DNA of 64,000 nucleotides from the human T2T-CHM13v2.0 reference genome, Homo sapiens. Position 1 is the stretch's first letter; each line of letters opens with the position of its first letter. Shown here in pieces: positions 6,415 through 32,582 of this stretch. The stretch lies in the NCBI RefSeq assembly GCF_009914755.1, contig NC_060929.1, one strand, 5' to 3'. A program made the translations under genes and the position numbers. The notes below the pieces were generated by a model. It worked only from the letters and a program-made list of their open reading frames with translations, searched no databases and was not told the DNA's origin.

Positions 6415-9035
6415 CTGGCCCCAGGACCCAGCCCCCTTCTTTGTGCAGCTTCTGGAGAACTCAGGTCACAGGCCCCGGGGATTGGCCCCAGGACCCAGCG
6501 CCCTTCTTTGTGCAGCTTCTGGAGAACTCAGGTTGCCGTCCCTGGGGAGTGTTCCCAGGACCCAGCCCCCTTCTTTGTGCAGCTTCTGGAGAACTCAGGT
6601 TGCAGTCCCCGGGGAGTGTTCCCAGGACCCAGCCCCCTTCTTTGTGCAGCGTTATGGAGAACTCAGGTCACGGTTCCTGGGGAGTGTTCCCAGGACCCAG
6701 CCCCCTTCTTTGTGCAGCTTTTGGAGAACTCAGGTCGCCGTCCCCGGGGAGTGTTCCCAGGACCCAGCCCCCTTCTTTGTGCAGCTTCTGGAGAACTCAG
6801 GTCACCGTCCCCGGGGAGTGGCCCCAGGACCCAGCCCCCTTCTTTGTGCAGCTTCTGGAGAACTCAGGTTGCAGTTCCCGGGGAGTGTTCCCAGGACCCA
6901 GCCCCCTTCTTTGTGCAGCTTCTGGAGAACTCTGGTTGCCGTCCCCGGGGAGTGTTCCCAGGACCCAGCCCCCTTCTTTGTGCAGCTTCTGGAGAACTCA
7001 GGTCACCGTCCCCGGGGAGTGGCCCCAGGACCCAGCCCCCTTCTTTGTGCAGCTTCTGGAGAACTCAGGTTGCAGTTCCCGGGGAGTGTTCCCAGGACCC
7101 AGCCCCCTTCTTTGTGCAGCTTCTGGAGAACTCTGGTTGCCGTCCCCGGGGAGTGTTCCCAGGACCCAGCCCCCTTCTTTGTGCAGCTTCTGGAGAACTC
7201 AGGTTGCAGTCCCCGGGGAGTGTTCCCACGACCCAGCCCCCTTCTTTGTGCAGCTTCTGGAGAACTCAGGTCGCCGTCCCCGGGGAGTGGCCCCAGGACC
7301 CAGCCCCCTTCTTTGTGCAGCTTCTGGAGAACTCTGGTTGCAGTTCCCGGGGAGTGTTCCCAGGACCCAGCCCCCTTCTTTGTGCAGCTTCTGGAGAACT
7401 CAGGTTGCCATCCCCGGGGAGTGTTCCCAGGACCCAGCCCCCTTCTTTGTGCAGCTTCTGGAGAACTCAGGTTGCAGTCCCCGGGGAGTGTTCCCACGAC
7501 CCAGCCCCCTTCTTTGTGCAGCTTCTGGAGAACTCAGGTCGCAGTCCCTGGGGAGTGTTCCCAGGACCCAGCCCCCTTCTTTGTGCAGCTTCTGGAGAAC
7601 TCTGGTTGCAGTTCCCGGGGAGTGTTCCCAGGACCCAGCCCCCTTCTTTGTGCAGCTTCTGGAGAACTCAGGTTGCCGTCCCTGGGGAGTGTTCCCAGGA
7701 CCCAGCCCCCTTCTTTGTGCAGCTTCTGGAGAACTCTGGTTGCCATCCCCGGGGAGTGTTCCCAGGACCCAGGCCCCTTCTTTGTGCAGCTTCTGGAGAA
7801 CTCAGGTCGCAGTCCCCGGGGAGTGTTCCCAGGACCCAGCCCCCTTCTTTGTGCAGCTTCTGGAGAACTCAGGTCGCAGTCCCCGGGGAGTGTTCCCAGG
7901 ACCCAGCCCCCTTCTTTGTGCAGCTTCTGGAGAACTCAGGTTACCATCCCCGGGGAGTGGCCCCAGGACCCAGCCCCCTTCTTTGTGCAGCTTCTGGAGA
8001 ACTCAGGTCGCAGTCCCCGGGGAGTGTTCCCAGGACCCAGCCCCCTTCTTTGTGCAGCTTCTGGAGAACTCAGGTTACCATCCCCGGGGAGTGGCCCCAG
8101 GACCCAGCCCCCTTCTTTGTGCAGCTTCTGGAGAACTCAGGTCGCAGTCCCCGGGGAGTGTTCCCAGGACCCAGCCCCCTTCTTTGTGCAGCTTCTGGAG
8201 AACTCAGGTTGCAGTCCCCGGGGAGTGTTCCCACGACCCAGCCCCCTTCTTTGTGCAGCTTCTGGAGAACTCAGGTTACCATCCCCGGGGAGTGGCCCCA
8301 GGACCCAGCCCCCTTCTTTGTGCAGCTTCTGGAGAACTCAGGTTGCAGTCCCCGGGGAGTGTTCCCAGGACCCAGCCCCCTTCTTTGTGCAGCTTCTGGA
8401 GAACTCAGGTTACCATCCCCGGGGAGTGGCCCCAGGACCCAGCCCCCTTCTTTGTGCAGCTTCTGGAGAACTCAGGTCACCGTCCCCGGGGAGTGGCCCC
8501 AGGACCCAGCCCCCTTCTTTGTGCAGCTTCTGGAGAACTCAGGTCGCAGTCCCCGGGGAGTGTTCCCAGGACCCAGCCCCCTTCTTTGTGCAGCTTCTGG
8601 AGAACTCAGGTTACCATCCCCGGGGAGTGGCCCCAGGACCCAGCCCCCTTCTTTGTGCAGCTTCTGGAGAACTCAGGTCGCAGTCCCCGGGGAGTGTTCC
8701 CAGGACCCAGCCCCCTTCTTTGTGCAGCTTCTGGAGAACTCAGGTTGCAGTCCCCGGGGAGTGTTCCCACGACCCAGCCCCCTTCTTTGTGCAGCTTCTG
8801 GAGAACTCAGGTTACCATCCCCGGGGAGTGGCCCCAGGACCCAGCCCCCTTCTTTGTGCAGCTTCTGGAGAACTCAGGTTGCAGTCCCCGGGGAGTGTTC
8901 CCACGACCCAGCCCCCTTCTTTGTGCAGCGTTCTGGAGAACTCAGGTCACAGGCCCCGGGGAGTGTTCCCAGGACCCAGCCCCCTTCTTTGTGCAGCGTT
9001 CTGGAGAACTCAGATCGCAGGCCCCGGGGAGTGGG
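6415..9035. repeat. 67-bp VNTR, ~39 copies, CEP72 intron 4
   Basis: Unit cccaggacccagcccccttctttgtgcagcttctggagaactcaggttgcagtccccggggagtgtt; starts at 6554 and 6621 give a period of 67. Confidence 0.97.
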
Positions 9036-9384
9036 ACTGTCCTCGGGTGGACCAGGTGTCGTATCATGAGCCACTCACAAAAGCAGCGTTCCTGGTCACT
9101 GCCCTTGGGTTTGTTTTGTGTAGATATCTCTTAACTGCCTTTGTTGGAAACAAGGTCCCCTTTGAGCACATTCTTCTCTGTATAGAGGGTCACCATGCTA
9201 AGGTGGGTCATATTCTGACACACCTCTGATTTCAGCCATTATGAAAACATTCTCCCTGAATGTGAAAGTGAACATTTGGAACACTTAACTTTCTTGATCA
9301 CGTGTATCTCCTTGTGGATGTGCTAGGAAAAGTGTAATCACATAGCAGAACAGAATCTTCCAGAACTTTAATTTTTGAACCAAT

Positions 9385-12300
9385 CCTAGTGGGGTTCTGT
9401 CCAGTGCCGGGATTTGGACCAGTCCTGGTGGGGTTCTGTCCAGTGCCGGGATTTGACCCAGTCCTGGTGGGGTTCTGTCCAGTGCCGGGATTTGGCCCAG
9501 TCCTGGTGGGGTTCTGTCCAGTGCCGGGATTTGGCCCAGTCCTGGTGGGGTTCTGTCCAGTGCCGGGATTTGGCCCAGTCCTGGTGGGGTTCTGTCCAGC
9601 GCCGGGATTTGGCCCAGTCCTGGTGGGGTTCTGTCCAGCGCCGGGATTTGGCCCAGTCCTGGTGGGGTTCTGTCCAGCGCCGGGATTTGGACCAGTCCTG
9701 GTGGGGTTCTGTCCAGTGTCGGGATTTGACCCAGTCCTGGTGGGGTTGCTGTCCAGTGCCGGGATTTAGACCAGTCCTGGTGGGGTTCTGTCCAGTGCTG
9801 GGATTTGACCCAGTCCTGGTGGGGTTCTGTCCAGTGTCGGGATTTGACCCAGTCCTGGTGGGGTGCTGTCCAGTGCCGGGATTTAGACCAGTCCTGGTGG
9901 GGTTCTGTCCAGTGCCGGGATTTGACCCAGTCCTGGTGGGGTTCTGTCCAGTGCCGGGATTTGGCCCAGTCCTGGTGGGGTTCTGTCCAGCGCCGGGATT
10001 TGGCCCAGTCCTGGTGGGGTTCTGTCCAGCGCCGGGATTTGGCCCAGTCCTGGTGGGGTTCTGTCCAGCGCCGGGATTTGGCCCAGTCCTGGTGGGGTTC
10101 TGTCCAGTGCCGGGATTTGACCCAGTCCTGGTGGGGTTCTGTCCAGTGCCGGGATTTGGCCCAGTCCTGGTGGGGTTCTGTCCAGTGCCGGGATTTAGAC
10201 CAGTCCTGGTGGGGTTCTGTCCAGTGCTGGGATTTGACCCAGTCCTGGTGGGGTTCTATCCAGTGCCGGGATTTGGCCCAGTCCTGGTGGGGTTCTGTCC
10301 AGCGCCGGGATTTGGCCCAGTCCTGGTGGGGTTCTGTCCAGCGCCGGGATTTGGACCAGTCCTGGTGGGGTTCTGTCCAGCGCCGGGATTTGGACCAGTC
10401 CTGGTGGGGTTCTGTCCAGCGCCGGGATTTGGACCAGTCCTGGTGGGGTTCTGTCCAGCGCCGGGATTTGGACCAGTCCTGGTGGGGTTCTGTCCAGCGC
10501 CGGGATTTGGACCAGTCCTGGTGGGGTTCTGTCCAGCGCCGGGATTTGGACCAGTCCTGGTGGGGTTCTGTCCAGCGCCGGGATTTGGACCAGTCCTGGT
10601 GGGGTTCTGTCCAGCGCCGGGATTTGGACCAGTCCTGGTGGGGTTCTGTCCAGCGCCGGGATTTGGACCAGTCCTGGTGGGGTTCTGTCCAGCGCCGGGA
10701 TTTGGACCAGTCCTGGTGGGGTTCTGTCCAGCGCCGGGATTTGGCCCAGTCCTGGTGGGGTTCTGTCCAGCGCCGGGATTTGGCCCAGTCCTGGTGGGGT
10801 TCTGTCCAGCGCCGGGATTTGGCCCAGTCCTGGTGGGGTTCTGTCCAGCGCCGGGATTTGGCCCAGTCCTGGTGGGGTTCTGTCCAGTGCCGGGATTTGG
10901 CCCAGTCCTGGTGGGGTTCTGTCCAGCGCCGGGATTTGGCCCAGTCCTGGTGGGGTTCTGTCCAGCGCCGGGATTTGGCCCAGTCCTGGTGGGGTTCTGT
11001 CCAGCGCCGGGATTTGGCCCAGTCCTGGTGGGGTTCTGTCCAGCGCTGGGATTTGGCCCAGTCCTGGTGGGGTTCTGTCCAGTGTCGGGATTTGGCCCAG
11101 TCCTGGTGGGGTGCTGTCCAGTGCCGGGATTTAGACCAGTCCTGGTGGGGTGCTGTCCAGTGCTGGGATTTGACCCAGTCCTGGTGGGGTTCTGTCCAGT
11201 GTCGGGATTTGACCCAGTCCTGGTGGGGTGCTGTCCAGTGCCGGGATTTAGACCAGTCCTGGTGGGGTGCTGTCCAGTGCCGGGATTTGACCCAGTCCTG
11301 GTGGGGTTCTGTCCAGTGCCGGGATTTGACCCAGTCCTGGTGGGGTTCTGTCCAGCGCCGGGATTTGGCCCAGTCCTGGTGGGGTTCTGTCCAGCGCCGG
11401 GATTTGGCCCAGTCCTGGTGGGGTTCTGTCCAGCGCCGGGATTTGGCCCAGTCCTGGTGGGGTTCTGTCCAGCGCCGGGATTTGGCCCAGTCCTGGTGGG
11501 GTTCTGTCCAGCGCCGGGATTTGGCCCAGTCCTGGTGGGGTTCTGTCCAGCGCCGGGATTTGGCCCAGTCCTGGTGGGGTTCTGTCCAGTGCCGGGATTT
11601 AGACCAGTCCTGGTGGGGTTCTGTCCAGTGCCGGGATTTAGACCAGTCCTGGTGGGGTTCTGTCCAGTGCCGGGATTTGGACCAGTCCTGGTGGGGTTCT
11701 GTCCAGTGCCGGGATTTGGACCAGTCCTGGTGGGGTTCTGTCCAGTGCCGGGATTTGGACCAGTCCTGGTGGGGTTCTGTCCAGTGCCGGGATTTGCACC
11801 AGTTCTGGTGGGGTTCTGTCCAGTGCCGGGATTTGGACCAGTTCTGGTGGGGTTCTGTCCAGTGCCGGGATTTAGACCAGTCCTGGTGGGGTTCTGTCCA
11901 GTGCCGGGATTTGGCCCAGTCCTGGTGGGGTTCTGTCCAGTGCCGGGATTTAGACCAGTCCTGGTGGGGTTCTGTCCAGTGCCGGGATTTGACCCAGTCC
12001 TGGTGGGGTGCTGTCCAGTGCCGGGATTTAGACCAGTCCTGGTGGGGTTCTGTCCAGTGCCGGGATTTGGCCCAGTCCTGGTGGGGTTCTGTCCAGTGCC
12101 GGGATTTAGACCAGTCCTGGTGGGGTTCTGTCCAGTGCTGGATTTGACCCAGTCCTGGTGGGGTGCTGTCCAGTGCCGGGATTTAGACCAGTCCTGGTGG
12201 GGTTCTGTTCAGTGCCGGGATTTGGCCCAGTCCTGGTGGGGTTCTGTCCAGTGCCAGGATTTAGTCCCGTCCTGGTGGGGTTCTGTCCAGTGCCGGGATT

Positions 12301-12455
12301 TGACCCAGTCCTGGTGGGGTGCTGTCCAGTGCCGGGATTTAGACCAGTCCTGGTGGGGTTCTGTTCAGTGCCGGGGTTTGGCCCAGTCCTGGTGGGGTTC
12401 TGTCCAGTGCTGGGATTTGGCCCAGTCCTGGTGGGGTTCTGTCCAGTGCCGGGAT
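9385..12455. repeat. 39-bp VNTR, ~79 copies, CEP72 intron 4
   Basis: Unit ccagtcctggtggggttctgtccagtgccgggatttggc (13-codon periodicity in ORF track); single-base indels near 9747 and 12140. Confidence 0.97.
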
Positions 12456-12675: not shown

Positions 12676-12854
12676 ACCACACCACCCCAGAGCCAAGTGC
12701 ACCGAGGCCTTGGCCAAGCAGAGCCTGGTCATGGATGCGGATGACGAGGCAGTCCTGAACCTCATTGCAGAGTGCGAGTGGGACCTCGGCAGGCCTCCCG
12801 GGAGCACGAGCTTCAGCCAGAAGGGGCGTGAGGCCGACTCTCGTGGTTCCCAAG
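12676..12854 (+). CDS. CEP72: CEP72 exon (exon 5), (R)PHHPRAKCTEALAKQSLVMDADDEAVLNLIAECEWDLGRPPGSTSFSQKGREADSRGSQ
   Basis: Acceptor ttttccttacag|, donor G|gtgcgc; 179 nt; phase-compatible with flanking exons. Confidence 0.95.
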
Positions 12855-20618: not shown

Positions 20619-21340
20619 CCTCTGTTTAAACGCACGTGGCCCCCGCACCCCGCCTGGAAGCCTCTGCACGTGGCCTTCATCTGGAAGCCTCTGTATTTAA
20701 ACACATGTGGGCCTCCTCCATCTGGAAGCCTCTGTATTTAAACACACGTGGGTCCCCATCCCCCGTCCAGAAGTCTCTGCATTTAAACACACATGGCCCC
20801 CCATCCCCCATCCAGAAGCCTGTGCATTTAAGCACACGTGGTCCCCCGTCTAGAAGCCTGTGCATTTAAGCACACGTGGTCCCCCGTCCAGAAGCCTCTG
20901 CATTTAAGCACACGTGGTCCCCCGTCCAGAAGCCTGTGCATTTAAACACACGTGGTCCCCCGTCCAGAAGCCTCTGCATTTAAGCACACGTGGTCCCCCG
21001 TCCAGAAGCCTGTGCATTTAAACACACGTGGTCCCCCGTCTAGAAGCCTCTGCATTTAAGCACACGTGGTCCCCCGTCCAGAAGCCTGTGCATTTAAACA
21101 CACGTGGTCCCCCGTCCAGAAGCCTGTGCATTTAAACACACGTGGTCCCCCGTCTAGAAGCCTCTGCATTTAAACCAACGTGGCCCCTCCTCTGGAAGCC
21201 TCTGTATTTAAACACACGTGGCCCCTCATCTGGTGGAAGCCTCTGGATTTAAGCACACATGGCCCCTTCTCTGGAAGCCTCTATATTTAAACACGTGTGG
21301 CCCCCCGTCTGGAAGCCTTTATACTGAAACGCACGTGACC
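20619..21340. repeat. 38-bp VNTR, ~19 copies, most carrying CACGTG
   Basis: Unit agaagcctgtgcatttaaacacacgtggtcccccgtcc; tgtgca at 20821 and 20859 gives a period of 38. Confidence 0.93.
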
Positions 21341-23212: not shown

Positions 23213-23339
23213 GATGATTTGAGACAACATTTAGATAAATCTTTGGAAGAGAACAGTAGGTTAAAATCGCTTTTGTTGAGTATGAAAAAGGAAGTGAAGA
23301 GTGCAGACACTGCAGCCACGTTAAATTTGCAGATCGCTG
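23213..23339 (+). CDS. CEP72: CEP72 exon (exon 10), DDLRQHLDKSLEENSRLKSLLLSMKKEVKSADTAATLNLQIA
   Basis: Acceptor ctgtgtccgcag|, donor G|gtaagt; 127 nt; too short for the ORF track but translated by hand. Confidence 0.95.
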
Positions 23340-26718: not shown

Positions 26719-26830
26719 GACTTCAAACAAGTGTGAAGAGGCTGTGTGGCGAGATTGTGGAACTGAAGCAGCACCTGGAGCACTACGACAAGATCCAGGA
26801 GCTCACGCAGATGCTGCAGGAGAGCCACAG
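26719..26830 (+). CDS. CEP72: CEP72 exon (exon 11), (G)LQTSVKRLCGEIVELKQHLEHYDKIQELTQMLQESH(S)
   Basis: Long polypyrimidine tract ending tctttcag|; weak donor AG|gtgcct; 112 nt. Confidence 0.95.
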
Positions 26831-27013
26831 GTGCCTGCCCGTGAGACTTGGGTGGGCCCCCGAGGGGAGGAGGCCCAGGTACAGGGAGGGTTGGGCCGGA
26901 CTGGGTCACACCCAGAAGGCACAGAGGAGCAGCTCCTCATGAGTCTTGGCCGATGATATCCAGGACCACTGCTGATTTGAAACTTTCATAAACTTTCCTC
27001 TCTGAAAACGGAG

Positions 27014-27137
27014 GCCCTTCATGCTGTCTGTCGCATGTGTGAGGCGTGGATCATGAAGTGTGACCCATGAGGTGTGGATGTGAGGTCTGACCATGAGGTG
27101 TGACCACGAGGCATGGACTGTGAGATGGGACTGTGAG
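27014..27137 (+). other. CEP72: Candidate cryptic (poison) exon in CEP72 intron 11
   Basis: Acceptor actttcctctctgaaaacggag|, strong donor GAG|gtatgt, adjoining UG-rich VNTR, in-frame TGA at 27054-27056; CEP72 recalled as a TDP-43 cryptic-exon gene. Confidence 0.6.
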
Positions 27138-29520
27138 GTATGTGACCATGGGGTGTGGGCTGTGAGGTATCAACCCTGAGTGTGAGGTGTGACTGTGAGG
27201 TGTGACTGTGAGGTATGACTGTGAGGTGTGACTGTGAGGTGTGGACTGTGAGGTGTGACTGTGAGGTGTGACTGTGAGGTGTGGACTGTGAGATGTGACT
27301 GTGAGGTGTGACTGTGAGGCGTGGACTGTGAGGCGTGGACTGTGAGGCGTGGACTGTGAGGTGTGACTGTGAGGTGTGACTGTGAGGTGTGGACTGTGAG
27401 GCGTGACTGAGGCGTGAATGTGAGGCGTGACTGTGAGGCGTGACTGTGAGGTGTGGACTGTGAGGTGTGGACTGTGAGGTGTGACTGTGAGGTGTGACTG
27501 TGAGGCGTGGACTGTGAGGTGTGACTGTGAGGTGTGACTGTGAGGTGTGGACTGTGAGGTGTGACTGTGAGGTGTGACTGTGAGGCGTGGACTGTGAGGG
27601 GTGACTGTGAGGTGTGACTGTGAGGTGTGACTGTGAGGTGTGACCACGAGGCATGGACTGTGAGATGGGACTGTGAGGTATGTGACCATGGGGTGTGGGC
27701 TGTGAGGTATCAACCCTGAGTGTGAGGTGTGACTGTGAGGTGTGACTGTGAGGTGTGGACTGTGAGGTGTGACTGTGAGGTGTGACTGTGAGGTGTGACT
27801 GTGAGGTGTGGACTGTGAGGTGTGAATGTGAGGTGTGACTGTGAGGCGTGACTGTGAGGCGTGACTGTGAGGTGTGGACTGTGAGGTGTGACTGTGAGGT
27901 GTGACTGTGAGGTGTGGACTGTGAGGTGTGACTGTGAGGTGTGACTGTGAGGTGTGGACTGTGAGTTGTGACTGTGAGGTGTGACTGTGAGGCGTGGACT
28001 GTGAGGCGTGACTGAGGCGTGACTGTGAGGCGTGACTGTGAGGCGTGGACTGTGAGGCGTGGACTGTGAGGTGTGACTGTGAGGTGTGCCTGTGAGGCGT
28101 GGACTGTGAGGCGTGGACTGTGAGGGGTGACTGTGAGGTGTGGACTGTGAGGTGTGACTGTGAGGTGTGACTGTGAGGTGTGGACTGTGAGGTGTGACTG
28201 TGAGGTGTGACTGTGAGGTGTGACTGTGAGGTGTGGACTGTGAGGTGTGACTGTGAGGCATGGACTGTGAGGCGTGACTGAGGCGTGACTGTGAGGCGTG
28301 GACTGTGAGGCGTGGACTGTGAGGTGTGACTGTGAGGTGTGCCTGTGAGGCGTGGACTGTGAGGCGTGGACTGTGAGGCGTGGACTGTGAGGGGTGACTG
28401 AGGCGTGGACTGTGAGGCGTGGACTGTGAGGTGTGACTGTGAGGTGTGACTGTGAGGCGTGGACTGTGAGGTGTGACTGTGAGGTGTGACTGTGAGGTGT
28501 GGACTGTGAGGCGTGACTGTGAGGCGTGACTGTGAGGTGTGGACTGTGAGGTGGGACTGTGAGGTGTGACTGAGGTGTGACTGTGAGGCGTGGACTGTGA
28601 GGCGTGACTGTGAGGCGTGACTGTGAGGCGTGACTGTGAGGCGTGGATTGTGAGGCGTGGACTGTGAGGTGTGACTGTGAGGTGTGACTGAGGCGTGGAC
28701 TGTGAGGTGTGACTGTGAGGCGTGACTGTGAGGCGTGACTGTGAGGCGTGGACTGTGAGGCGTGGACTGTGAGGCGTGGACTGTGAGGTGTGACTGTGAG
28801 GTGTGACTGTGAGGCGTGGACTGTGAGGTGTGACTGTGAGGTGTGACTGTGAGGTGTGACTGTGAGGCGTGGACTGTGAGGCGTGGACTGTGAGGTGTGA
28901 CTGTGAGATGTGACTGTGAGGCGTGGACTGTGAGGTGTGACTGTGAGGTGTGACTGAGGTGTGACTGTGAGGCGTGGACTGTGAGGCGTGGACTGTGAGG
29001 TGTGACTGTGAGGTGTGACTGTGAGGCGTGGACTGTGAGGTGTGACTGTGAGGTGTGACTGTGAGGCGTGGACTGTGAGGTGTGACTGTGAGGCGTGGAC
29101 TGTGAGGTGTGACTGTGAGGCGTGGACTGTGAGGTGTGACTGTGAGGCATGGACTGTGAGGTGTGACTGAGGTGTGACTGAGGTGTGACTGTGAGGCGTG
29201 GACTGTGAGGTGTGACTGTGAGGCGTGGACTGTGAGGTGTGACTGTGAGGCGTGGACTGTGAGGTGTGACTGAGGTGTGACTGTGAGGCGTGGACTGTGA
29301 GGTGTGACTGTGAGGCGTGGACTGTGAGGTGTGACTGTGAGGCGTGGACTGTGAGGTGTGACTGTGAGGTGTGACTGTGAGGTGTGACTGTGAGGCGTGG
29401 ACTGTGAGATGTGACTGTGAGGCATGGACTGTGAGGTGTGACTGTGAGGTGTGACTGAGGCATGGACTGTGAGTTGTGAATGTGAGGTGTGGACTGAGAG
29501 TTGTGGACTGTGAGATATGA
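27060..29520. repeat. 12/13-bp UG-rich VNTR (gactgtgaggYgt[g])n, ~195 units, ~2.45 kb
   Basis: Interspersed gactgtgaggtgt, ggactgtgaggcgt and shorter gactgagg variants; internal 540-nt higher-order duplication. Confidence 0.97.
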
Positions 29521-31088
29521 CCTGTGTGCAGTGTGACCAGGGGAGAGAGGTGCATGAGAGATGGTCGGGCACGGCGGGGCAACCTGGTTCCCCTGGGCGG
29601 TAGTCCGGCAGCTGTGCTTCCCCCTTCACTGCAGTGCGTGTTCAGTTGGAAACACGGAGATTTCACCTTTACTCCCTGGCTATAGGGGGATGGTGAGAAG
29701 GGGGCTGGGTGTGAGGGGATCTTCAAGGCAGAATCTTAGTTTGTCTTTTAAGAATTGTGTGCCGGGACGTGGTTGGAGGCTGGGTGCAGAAAGGAAGAGG
29801 CGAGCTGCTGGAGGAGGCAAGGACAGGTCGCTCTGGGCAGTTTTGTGGGTGCTGCTGTGTGAACCCCTGTTGCTGTGGCCTCAGCAGGGAAGGCTGGTCT
29901 GTGGTCAGTTCCTCCCCCTCCCCTCCCCCTTTCATTCCCTCTTCCTTTCCCCCGACCTCCCATTCCCGCTCCCTCCCCCACTCCTCAGGCTGAGGCTGCC
30001 ACACTTACCTGGGTTCGACTACAGTCTGGTCATAGGCGTAGCCAGGCTCTGCCCCTTACAGGATAAAGGCCACAGACCCCCATGGGGCCCATCACAGGTG
30101 TAAGTTACAGAGGGGAAGGGTCCTGAAAGATGAGACTGGGCCAAGAGGAGATGCAGCGGAGCAGAAGGAAGGGGACTGTGGCGGCCGCGGGTGCAGTGCC
30201 CAGTCGTGGGCAGGGCCATGTGACTCCCTGGAACCTGGTGGGCCTGTCTGTGGCAGGTCAAGGTACAGTTGGGGGTCATTCTCCTTGAGCACTGTGGCCT
30301 GGATGTGGACAAGGCAGGGTGCACAGCTCCCAAACATGGTGGCATCGGGCTTCTGCCCCCAGGATTCATGCTGGCTTCATCCAGTCCTGGCCTGCGGCTC
30401 CTTTGCTGTCCAAGTGAACAGGGCCTGGGCCTGCACAGTGGCCCTGTCAGTGGGGTGCCCATCTCTGTGGCTAATGTGACCGAGGTCAGTGGGCCCTGCC
30501 TTGTCTAATACTTGTAATGCCCTGAGTGTCCTCAGGTCATCGCTGACTGGGTGATTAGGGCAATTTGGAGGTGACAAAGTGGGTAAAATGTAATAGCACT
30601 TTACTTCTAAAATAAAAATGGTCAACAGCATTAAAGACTAGGACTCTTCTATTGCACTATTATGATGTCAAAATTATTATATTTGACTGGGAATTAGAAC
30701 TATTTCAGTCCCCGTATATTTTCTAGAATTAGAACATTGTTTTGCTAGCCATGAAGTTTATCATCTTCTCATAAAACCATGCGTAGCTGGAATAGCCAAG
30801 GCGCCATTCAGTCACTCATTAGCCTGTTCAGCTCATTCATTCATTCCATAGGTGCTGAGCCGCACCTCCAAGGCTGCTCCCAGGGGTCAGGACAGTGGTT
30901 GGGAAGGAGGAGGCAGGTGGGCGGTAGCCAGTGGGACACAGAAGGTGATGGGGCCACAGAGATAGGTCTGTGTGCAGGGCCAGGGCACCTTCGTGCCCAT
31001 GCAGGGAGGTGGGCAGGCCCAGCAGGTGAGGGCCACACCGCTGGAGAGGACGGAAGTGCCAAGCAGCCGCTTCCCTGTTGTTCTGCAG

Positions 31089-31254
31089 CTCCCTGGTCAG
31101 CACCAATGAACACCTGCTGCAGGAGCTGAGCCAGGTGCGGGCGCAGCACAGAGCCGAGGTGGAGCAGATGCACTGGAGCTACCAGGAGCTCAAGAAGACC
31201 ATGGCCCTGTTTCCACACAGCAGCGCCAGCCATGGAGGCTGCCAGGCCTGCTGA
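31089..31254 (+). CDS. CEP72: CEP72 last coding exon (exon 12), SLVSTNEHLLQELSQVRAQHRAEVEQMHWSYQELKKTMALFPHSSASHGGCQAC*
   Basis: Acceptor gttgttctgcag|; stop TGA at 31252-31254; 166 coding nt. Confidence 0.95.
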
Positions 31255-32049: not shown

Positions 32050-32582
32050 GTGCTAGCTCTGTGTGTGTGTGTGCCCTTGCTGTGTGTGTGCCCTTGCTGT
32101 GTGTGTGTGCTGTGTGTGCGCTAGTGTGTGCGCTTGCTGTGTGTGTGTGCTAGCTGTGTGTGTGTGCTGTGTGTGCGCCTAGTGTGTGTGCTAGCTGTGT
32201 GTGTGCTAGCTGTGTGTGTGTGCTGTGTGTGCTAGCTGTGTGCGCTTGCTGTGTGTGCTCTGTGCACGTGCACTTGCTCTGTGTACTAGCTGTGTGTGCA
32301 TGCTAGCTGTGTGTGCGCTTGCTGTGTGTGTGCTAGCTGTGTGTGCATGCTTGCTGTGTGTGTGTGCTTGTGCGCTTGCTGTGTGTGTGTGCAGTTGCTG
32401 TGTGCTAGCTGTGTGTACGCTTGTGTGTGCGCTGTGTGTGTGCGCGCACGCACCCTGTGTGTGCTGTGGGTGCACGCATTGTGTATGTGCACTTGCTATG
32501 TGTGTGCTTGTGTGCTAGCTGTGTGTGTCTGCTAGCTGTGTGTGTGTGTGCTTCTGTGTGTGTGTGTGTGTGTGTGCGTGTG
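32050..32582. repeat. (TG)n-rich compound simple repeat with gctagct interruptions
   Basis: About 530 nt of tgtgtgtg, tgctagctg and cgcttgc. Confidence 0.95.

What the first reader, a model, noticed from the sequence alone, without database searches (positions are those of the whole stretch)
27014..27137. Poison exon in CEP72 intron 11 anchored in a 2.45-kb UG-rich VNTR (candidate repeat-tuned TDP-43 switch)
Seen: exon 11 has a weak donor (AG|gtgcct). 183 nt downstream lies an acceptor (ctttcctctctgaaaacggag|) and then a strong donor GAG|gtatgt at 27137/27138, inside the first units of the (gactgtgaggYgt)n VNTR. Inclusion of the 124-nt exon reads RPFMLSVACVRRGS* (TGA 27054-27056). The stop is 81 nt before the last junction, which predicts NMD or loss of the C-terminal ~55 aa. 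Established: TDP-43 represses cryptic exons next to UG repeats, and I recall CEP72 among TDP-43 cryptic-exon genes (unverified here). Inference: the repressive element is a length-variable VNTR, so allele length could set inclusion, loosely analogous to UNC13A.
Basis: partly seen in the sequence, partly recalled or inferred. Interest (0 to 1): 0.8.

Follow-up and report, generated by a model that had tools for sequence, protein, structure and literature searches.

The report
Known TDP-43 cryptic exon in CEP72
The predicted 124-base exon in CEP72 intron 11 is real and is already listed, at exactly these splice junctions, as an exon that appears when TDP-43 is lost; that the length of the adjoining repeat array sets its inclusion is still untested.

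Summary
Exon 11 ends at 26830 with a weak donor. An AG at 27012-13 opens an exon at 27014, and a good donor follows 27137. Inclusion reads 14 new residues and then TGA at 27054-56. A 13/14-bp G/U-rich array spans 27068-29526.

The exon is not new. A supplementary table of a 2025 preprint (PMC12667841) lists two CEP72 junctions, hg38 chr5:647916-648100 and chr5:648223-652988. The table names seven TDP-43 knock-down data sets and labels the exon 'Early'. A 2026 review lists CEP72 among cryptic-exon genes in FTD cortex.

What I add:
- The last 44 exon bases and the donor lie in a block repeated exactly 540 bp downstream, so a second identical donor follows 27677.
- The array is dense in GUGUG(A) but has no pure UG run over 5 bases.
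- hg38 has 813 bp more than CHM13 between the donor and the last exon.

The nonsense-mediated decay (NMD) labels are mixed. Length tuning is untested, and my searches found nothing in print on it.

The parts
26719..26830 (+). CEP72 exon 11 (NM_018140.4), ending in a weak donor CAG|GTGCCT
   Evidence: Annotation table in the finding; sequence. The donor matches 6 of 9 consensus positions, U1 duplex -6.8 kcal/mol, second weakest of the 8 annotated donors in the window.
26964..27013 (+). 3' splice-site region of the cryptic exon: a 50-nt stretch with no AG, an 11-nt pyrimidine run (CTTTCCTCTCT), a 10-nt purine-rich spacer, then AG at 27012-13
   Evidence: The two branch-point-like motifs (A at 26975 and 26988) are my reading of the sequence, not tested.
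27014..27137 (+). 124-nt TDP-43-repressed cryptic cassette exon; shifts the frame, stop TGA at 27054-56; holds the only TGTGTG of the region at 27036
   Evidence: Junctions hg38 chr5:647916-648100 and 648223-652988 in the supplementary table of PMC12667841 convert to 26830>27014 and 27137>31089. The part upstream of the repeat is unique in the genome.
27138..27146 (+). Intron side of the cryptic 5' splice site, GAG|GTATGT, a variant of the array unit's GAG|GTGTGA
27068..29526 (+). 13/14-bp G/U-rich minisatellite, about 177 units: 79 GTGTGA, 166 TGTGAG and 95 donor-like GAGGTGTGA/G 9-mers; candidate multivalent TDP-43 platform
   Evidence: Its RNA folds no better than shuffles (z = -0.05).
27634..27754 (+). 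Exact second copy, 540 bp downstream, of 27094-27214 (last 44 exon bases, the donor and 77 intron bases); gives a second identical donor after 27677
31089..31254 (+). Coding part of the last CEP72 exon (55 residues), out of frame after inclusion
   Evidence: Annotation table.

Best explanation
Window 27014-27137 is a genuine cryptic cassette exon of CEP72 intron 11. It is silent in normal cells and spliced in when nuclear TDP-43 falls.

Its acceptor and first 80 or so bases are unique sequence. Its last 44 bases and its 5' splice site are degenerate units at the upstream edge of a 2.46-kb 13/14-bp G/U-rich minisatellite.

Inferred mechanism: TDP-43 coats the GUGUG(A)-dense, unstructured RNA inside the exon and immediately downstream. 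This blocks exon definition, so the weak exon 11 donor pairs with exon 12. Without TDP-43, the better cryptic donor and the nearby acceptor are used.

Inclusion shifts the frame. The product is CEP72 with its last 55 residues replaced by 14 new ones. The transcript is at most partly degraded by NMD.

Basis of each step:
- Shown by sequence: the anatomy, frame and motif density.
- Shown by published tables: the junctions and the TDP-43 dependence.
- Inferred: direct binding to the array and the fate of the protein.
For: Junctions and TDP-43 dependence:
- Supplementary file 1 of PMC12667841 lists CEP72 chr5:647916-648100 and chr5:648223-652988 (2 of 19 occurrences seen).
- For the second junction it names Brown-SHSY5Y, Brown-SKNBE2, Vargas-i3LMN, UPF1-i3Cortical, CHX-SHSY5Y, SMG1i-SHSY5Y and curve_experiments. 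For the first junction it names four of these.
- Both junctions are labelled 'Early'.
- That paper defines cryptic events as PSI under 5% in controls and over 10% after knock-down.

Coordinates:
- The offset hg38 minus window is 621086 at exon 10 (644299 against 23213; and the annotation table).
- It gives 647916 = 26830, 648100 = 27014 and 648223 = 27137. The spans 184 and 123 are identical in both assemblies.
- Both new introns are GT-AG.

Disease tissue:
- Review PMC13343711 lists CEP72 among cryptic-exon genes in FTD frontal and temporal cortex.
- The RiMOD row for the donor junction carries the figures 5, 0, 25, 27, 20. I read these as 5 of 20 TDP-43 cases and 0 of 27 others. The headers were not seen.

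Sequence features:
- The TG fraction in the 250 nt after the cryptic donor is 0.53, against 0.15-0.22 for the 8 annotated donors.
- GTGTGA occurs at 32 per kb in the array against 0.55 per kb elsewhere.
- The RNA is unstructured: z = -0.05 for the array start and +2.36 for the exon region.
- The acceptor side is unique in the genome.

Expression: CEP72 mRNA is lower after TDP-43 knock-down in i3 neurons, log2FC -0.39, adjusted p 0.002.
Against: - I saw no CLIP data, so direct binding to the array is not shown.
- The array has no uninterrupted UG run over 5 nt. PMC12667841 reports that 'early-responsive' donors are dominated by uninterrupted UG repeats. On that count this exon is atypical for its class.
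- The exon is not called in every data set. The names Brown-i3Cortical, Humphrey-i3Cortical, Seddighi-i3Cortical and Ferguson-HeLa appear for other genes in the same passages but not for CEP72.
- In the i3-neuron splicing table of Brown 2022, the 3 CEP72 occurrences in file 1 (the same 3 in file 5), as far as the passages show, belong to a different event at exon 10.
- TPPP, the neighbouring gene, is also down in that knock-down. The fall in CEP72 mRNA therefore need not come from this exon.
- The NMD labels are mixed.
- I saw only two passages of the key table and no column headers.
- CEP72 is absent from the 12 of 14 supplementary files of Ma 2022 that were searched.
Confidence: 0.85

Rival explanations
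1. The minisatellite is the repressive TDP-43 element, and its allele length (or unit make-up) sets how much TDP-43 loss is needed, so inclusion differs between people.
For: - The array starts inside the exon and is very dense in GUGUG(A).
- hg38 has 813 bp more than CHM13 between the cryptic donor and exon 12. That fits 41 units of 13 bp plus 20 units of 14 bp (that the difference lies in the array is inferred).
- Tandem-repeat differences at TPPP/CEP72 between modern and Neanderthal-like haplotypes are reported (passages of 10.1101/2025.06.24.661368).
- Repeat length tuning TDP-43-dependent splicing is an established kind: CFTR (TG)n and the PLEKHA1 GT repeat. TARDBP is the protein most enriched at splicing-associated repeats (passages of PMC10078293).
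- PMC12667841 links early response to whole-intron UG density.
Against: - Nothing links this array's length to splicing.
- Both reference alleles hold well over 150 units. Any effect of more distal units, 2-3 kb from the splice sites, may be saturated (inference).
- The closest disease precedent, the STMN2 CA repeat, was proposed (PMC8033025) and then questioned (PMC9342143). I saw only the abstracts in the listing.
Confidence: 0.2
2. The exon depends on TDP-43, but the array is a bystander. Repression comes from the few sites inside or next to the exon (UGUGUG at 27036 and GUGUGA at 27037, 27058 and 27098), or indirectly through another factor that changes after TDP-43 loss.
For: - The only pure (UG)3 of the region lies in the unique part of the exon.
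- The array units are interrupted motifs.
- PMC12667841 notes that individual cryptic exons are co-regulated by other RNA-binding proteins.
- I saw no CLIP data.
Against: - The label 'Early' is described in that paper as the more direct TDP-43 class.
- The first 250 nt after the donor have a TG fraction of 0.53, which is where repressive TDP-43 sites usually lie.
Confidence: 0.2
3. The array represses, but through its roughly 95 donor-like GAG|GUGUGA/G sites. These act as U1 decoys or as a splicing dead end, and TDP-43 plays only a supporting part.
For: 77 GAGGTGTGA and 18 GAGGTGTGG 9-mers lie in the array. Each overlaps the GUGUG motif, so U1 and TDP-43 would compete for the same bases (inference).
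Against: - These sites match the consensus at only 5 of 9 positions (my own count on the 9-mers listed).
- The published tables show dependence on TDP-43.
- I found no data on U1 occupancy.
Confidence: 0.07
4. Part of the published signal belongs to a longer exon, 27014-27677 (664 nt), that uses the second identical donor. Short reads place it at the first copy.
For: 44 nt before and 77 nt after the two donors are identical. A junction read with less than 45 nt on the exon side cannot tell them apart.
Against: - The acceptor junction and the first donor junction are both listed.
- A 124-nt exon fits exon definition better than a 664-nt one.
- I do not know whether hg38 carries the same duplication.
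Confidence: 0.1

Closest known systems
TDP-43-repressed cryptic exons (UNC13A, STMN2, ATG4B, HDGFL2 and others)
   Same: - Not in the reference annotation.
- Silent in controls and included after TDP-43 loss.
- G/U-rich RNA at and after the donor.
- Frame-disrupting.
- Listed in the same catalogue and the same review table.
   Different: - The G/U-rich element is a 2.46-kb minisatellite of 13/14-bp units with no pure UG run over 5 nt, not a short (UG)n tract.
- The donor itself is a repeat unit and is present twice.
- For UNC13A the known modifiers are SNPs (title and passages of PMC8891020/PMC8891019; otherwise recalled).
CFTR exon 9 (TG)m polymorphism and splicing-associated tandem repeats (spl-TRs; Hamanaka 2023, PMC10078293)
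   Same: A length-polymorphic G/U repeat next to a splice site that binds TDP-43 and silences an exon. TARDBP is the top enriched protein at spl-TRs (passages).
   Different: - Those are short dinucleotide repeats with a measured link between length and splicing.
- Here the repeat is a kilobase-scale minisatellite and no such link has been measured.
- CEP72 has 0 occurrences in that paper's main text.
STMN2 intronic CA repeat as an ALS modifier
   Same: The idea that repeat length near a TDP-43 cryptic exon modifies the outcome.
   Different: The association was reported (PMC8033025) and then questioned in a larger cohort (PMC9342143). I saw only the abstracts in the listing. It serves as a caution for the length-tuning idea.

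Membership tests
TDP-43-repressed cryptic exon | Absent from reference transcript annotation | tested here: met
   The RefSeq table supplied with the finding lists no exon at 27014-27137. GENCODE was not available to me.
TDP-43-repressed cryptic exon | Low inclusion in controls, raised after TDP-43 depletion | not testable with these tools
   I ran no RNA-seq. Taken from print: the junctions are in supplementary file 1 of PMC12667841, with seven knock-down data sets named. That paper's criterion is PSI under 5% in controls and over 10% after knock-down. Exact coordinate match.
TDP-43-repressed cryptic exon | UG-rich TDP-43 motifs in or next to the exon | tested here: met
   - TGTGTG at 27036.
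- 17 GTGTG between 27037 and 27387.
- TG fraction 0.53 in the 250 nt after the donor, against 0.15-0.22 at the annotated donors.
- Caveat: the motifs are interrupted and no pure run exceeds 5-6 nt.
TDP-43-repressed cryptic exon | TDP-43 crosslinking (CLIP) at the site | not testable with these tools
   I could reach no CLIP data. Reads inside the array would also multi-map within it.
Poison exon (NMD-coupled cassette) | Premature stop more than 50-55 nt before the last exon junction | tested here: met
   TGA at 27054-56, 81 nt before the junction at 27137. The 50-55-nt rule is established knowledge.
Poison exon (NMD-coupled cassette) | Transcript level rises when NMD is blocked | tested here: inconclusive
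   I ran no experiment. [quoted passage not shown]
Splicing-associated tandem repeat (spl-TR) or repeat-tuned TDP-43 switch | The repeat is length-polymorphic in people | tested here: inconclusive
   hg38 has 813 bp more than CHM13 between the donor and exon 12. That the difference lies in the array is inferred. Tandem-repeat differences at the locus are reported in general terms only.
Splicing-associated tandem repeat (spl-TR) or repeat-tuned TDP-43 switch | Repeat length or composition correlates with exon inclusion | not tested
   No genotype-matched expression data were available. Nothing found in print.

The most novel reading that the evidence does not exclude
The CEP72 cryptic exon is held off not by a classical (UG)n tract but by many weak TDP-43 sites on a polymorphic kilobase-scale minisatellite. 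Two properties of an allele would then set the level of TDP-43 loss at which the exon appears:
- the number and make-up of its units;
- the number of copies of the 540-bp block that carries the donor.

This would make it a person-specific read-out of TDP-43 function, and a first case of a minisatellite acting as a dose-setting TDP-43 scaffold.
Probability: 0.15. Interest if true: 0.6.

Novelty: already known. Interest (0 to 1): 0.3.

Why it matters
That is a good check on the method, but the exon is not a discovery.

Three points remain open and are modestly useful:
- The exon's donor is a unit of a length-variable minisatellite and is present twice. This bears on how short-read pipelines place and count this junction when it is used as a marker of TDP-43 pathology.
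- The exon is classed 'Early' without any long pure UG tract. It is therefore a natural test case for binding through many weak sites.
- The array differs by about 61 units between the two reference assemblies, so a length-against-inclusion test is feasible with existing long-read and RNA-seq cohorts.

I know of no evidence that CEP72 is an ALS/FTD risk gene, so the medical weight is small unless the exon proves a good marker.

Tried and rejected
Literature that led nowhere:
- Ma 2022 (PMC8891019): CEP72 has 0 occurrences in the main text. It is in 0 of the 12 supplementary files searched; files 13 and 14 of 14 were not searched.
- Belchikov 2025 (PMC12558363) and Brown 2025 (PMC12667841): 0 occurrences in either main text.
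- Ling 2015: the PMC id I recalled is not held, so I could not check whether CEP72 is in the first cryptic-exon list.
I asked for no supplementary files after that. The other 17 CEP72 occurrences and the column headers of the key table in PMC12667841 therefore remain unseen.
- The searches CEP72+VNTR (8 papers, 6 listed), CEP72+'tandem repeat' (21 papers, 19 listed), CEP72+sQTL (1 paper, on cattle), VNTR+TDP-43+'cryptic exon' (13 papers, 12 listed) and TDP-43+minisatellite+cryptic (9 papers, 8 listed) gave nothing, by title or listed abstract, on this array and splicing.
- An editorial (PMC10595439) and the PangyPlot preprint mention CEP72 only as a locus name.
- Earlier findings of this scan were not open.

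Ideas rejected:
- A chance pairing of AG and GT. Rejected because the published junctions match exactly.
- A stable RNA structure hiding or presenting the sites. Rejected because the folds are no better than shuffles.
- The junctions as a mis-mapping from another locus. Rejected because the acceptor side is unique in the genome, and the related arrays on other chromosomes are only 70-81% alike over part of the query.

Not attempted: conservation in other primates and in mouse (no such genomes here), and a trained splice-site model (none installed, so I used simple consensus and U1-duplex scores).

Full report
**1. The observation**

- Exon 11 of CEP72 ends CACAG|GTGCCT at 26830|26831.
- 183 nt downstream, an 11-base pyrimidine run and a 10-base purine-rich spacer lead to AG at 27012-13. 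This is the first AG after 26962-63.
- The exon that starts at 27014 ends GAG|GTATGT at 27137|27138.
- Exon 11 ends with two bases of a codon. Inclusion of the 124 nt therefore reads RPFMLSVACVRRGS and then TGA at 27054-56, 81 nt before the last junction. The normal last exon encodes 55 residues.
- Tandem Repeats Finder gives an array at 27068-29526. The period-13 row (27177-29526) has 176.6 copies and 87% matches, with 27- and 40-bp super-periods.
- The unit with up to 1 mismatch occurs 153 times, all on the + strand within 27130-29491. The expectation by chance is 0.29, and 0 of 100 shuffles reach 153.

**2. How exceptional the sites are**

Within intron 11:
- 4 of 566 GT sites match the 9-base donor consensus at 7 or more positions: 27137, 27677, 30484 and 31025.
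- 5 of 327 AG sites have a pyrimidine tract at least as good as that before 27014: 27014, 29635, 29646, 29989 and 29995.
- 27014 with 27137 is the only such pair under 300 nt apart.

The thresholds were set on the exon's own values, so these counts describe and do not test.

The exon 11 donor matches 6 of 9 positions and has a U1 duplex energy of -6.8 kcal/mol. That is the second weakest of the 8 annotated donors in the window. The cryptic donor scores -7.7.

**3. What it is: already in print**

The search for CEP72, 'cryptic exon' and TDP-43 found one paper, a 2026 review (PMC13343711). Its table lists CEP72 among cryptic-exon genes in FTD frontal and temporal cortex (passages read).

Of the sources that table cites:
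- Ma 2022 does not hold CEP72: 0 in the main text and 0 in the 12 of 14 supplementary files searched.
- Brown 2022 (PMC8891020) holds CEP72 in 5 of 8 supplementary files. The splicing rows seen concern another event, at exon 10.
- Supplementary file 1 of Brown 2025 (preprint, PMC12667841) lists two CEP72 junctions, hg38 chr5:647916-648100 and chr5:648223-652988 (2 of 19 occurrences shown, headers not seen).

The rows give exon 10 as hg38 644299-644425, and the annotation gives 23213-23339, so hg38 minus window is 621086. With that offset:
- 647916 = 26830;
- 648100 = 27014;
- 648223 = 27137.

The spans 184 and 123 agree in both assemblies, and both new introns are GT-AG.

What the table and paper say about it:
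- For the donor junction the table names Brown-SHSY5Y, Brown-SKNBE2, Vargas-i3LMN, UPF1-i3Cortical, CHX-SHSY5Y, SMG1i-SHSY5Y and curve_experiments.
- It labels the exon 'Early' three times.
- The paper defines cryptic events as PSI under 5% in controls and over 10% after knock-down. It describes early-responsive events as those needing least TDP-43 loss (abstract and passages read).
- The RiMOD row carries the figures 5, 0, 25, 27, 20. I read these as detection in 5 of 20 TDP-43 cases and 0 of 27 others. This is my reading of unlabelled columns.

**4. Results that cut the other way**
- The exon is not called in every data set. Several i3-cortical sets and the HeLa set are named for other genes in the same passages but not for CEP72.
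- In the i3-neuron splicing table of Brown 2022, the CEP72 occurrences (3 in file 1, the same 3 in file 5), as far as the passages show, belong to the exon 10 event.
[quoted passage not shown] The stop meets the 50-55-nt rule, but 'poison exon' in the sense of efficient decay is not established.
- CEP72 mRNA falls after knock-down in i3 neurons (log2FC -0.39, adjusted p 0.002). So does neighbouring TPPP.

**5. Anatomy that I did not find in print**

(a) The exon straddles the edge of the array.
- Its acceptor and first 80 or so bases are unique in the genome.
- Its last 44 bases, its donor and the next 77 intron bases form a block that recurs exactly 540 bp downstream. A second identical donor therefore follows 27677.
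- Short junction reads with under 45 nt on the exon side cannot tell the two apart. A 664-nt form is possible.

(b) The array is G/U-rich but not a UG repeat.
- TG occurs at 261 per kb against 85-95 per kb elsewhere.
- GTGTG occurs at 41 per kb against 3-5.5 per kb elsewhere.
- There are 79 GTGTGA and 166 TGTGAG.
- There is no TGTGTG or GTGTGT, and the longest pure run is 5 nt.
- The only pure (UG)3 of the region is at 27036, inside the exon.
- The commonest units are ACTGTGAGGTGTG (60), ACTGTGAGGCGTGG (36), ACTGTGAGGTGTGG (16) and ACTGTGAGGCGTG (11).

(c) 95 units carry a donor-like GAG|GTGTGA or GAG|GTGTGG.

(d) The RNA is unstructured: z = -0.05 for 27138-27437 and +2.36 for 26960-27200.

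(e) hg38 has 4765 bases from the donor to exon 12 and CHM13 has 3952. The difference of 813 bp equals 41 units of 13 bp plus 20 units of 14 bp. That the difference lies in the array is inferred.

**6. Mechanism**

Most likely, TDP-43 binds the GUGUG(A)-dense single-stranded RNA in the exon and just after its donor, and so blocks exon definition. When TDP-43 falls, the nearby acceptor and the better donor win over the weak exon 11 donor. The product lacks the last 55 residues and carries 14 new ones.

The junctions and the TDP-43 dependence come from print. The anatomy is shown here. Direct binding to the array and the fate of the protein are inferred.

PMC12667841 reports that early-responsive donors are dominated by uninterrupted UG repeats. 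This exon is thus an 'Early' event without such a tract. That fits either binding through many weak sites on the array or control by the few exonic sites. I recall that GUGUGA is among the described TDP-43 hexamer classes, but I did not check this.

**7. Length tuning**

The kind is known.
- Passages of PMC10078293 recount the CFTR (TG)n case and a PLEKHA1 GT repeat, and report TARDBP as the protein most enriched at splicing-associated repeats.
- The STMN2 CA-repeat association was reported and then questioned (abstracts in the listing).
- For the CEP72 array, five searches found nothing on splicing.
- One preprint reports tandem-repeat differences at TPPP/CEP72 between modern and Neanderthal-like haplotypes, without naming this array.

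Both reference alleles exceed 150 units, so I expect saturation. I put length tuning at about 0.15-0.2.

**8. Verdict**

Novelty: already known. Interest: low to moderate, resting on the duplicated repeat-borne donor and on a feasible length-against-inclusion test.

Supplementary files that I could not see may bear on these points: the rest of file 1 of PMC12667841, files 13-14 of Ma 2022, and those of Cao and Scotter 2022 and Ling 2015.

Noticed in passing
window 22583 (hg38 chr5:643669), CEP72 intron 9: An unannotated donor, CAG|GTGAGA, is joined to exon 10. In the i3-neuron table of Brown 2022 this 'novel_donor' junction has PSI 0.256 in controls and 0.06 after TDP-43 knock-down (probability of change 0.86). 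It would be an unannotated exon end that is lost, not gained, on TDP-43 depletion.
   Followed up: partly
window 32066-32445: A second G/U-rich array, (TGTGTGTGCGCTTGC)n with 26.7 copies, lies about 400 bp after the canonical CEP72 3' end and inside an intron of the longer transcripts (31292>33559). The 500-nt stretch from 32001 has 67 GTGTG, more than any stretch of the intron 11 array.
   Followed up: no
window 20680-21318, CEP72 intron 9: The offset between hg38 and CHM13 changes by 152 bp across intron 9 (620934 at exon 9, 621086 at exon 10). That equals four units of the 38-bp array there (arithmetic and inference).
   Followed up: partly
window 6420-9033 and 9380-12455: Two large arrays (67 bp x 39.0 and 39 bp x 78.9, 93-95% matches) fill much of the intron before the exon at 12676. 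The window holds at least 12 separate arrays with score 200 or more.
   Followed up: no
G000 C16:93000417-93001109, C15:99066776-99067491, C13:112363011-112363655, C9:147313503-147313946, C6:171824908-171825080: Arrays 70-81% alike to part of the CEP72 units lie on other chromosomes, several at high contig coordinates. I did not check whether any lies next to another TDP-43 cryptic exon.
   Followed up: no
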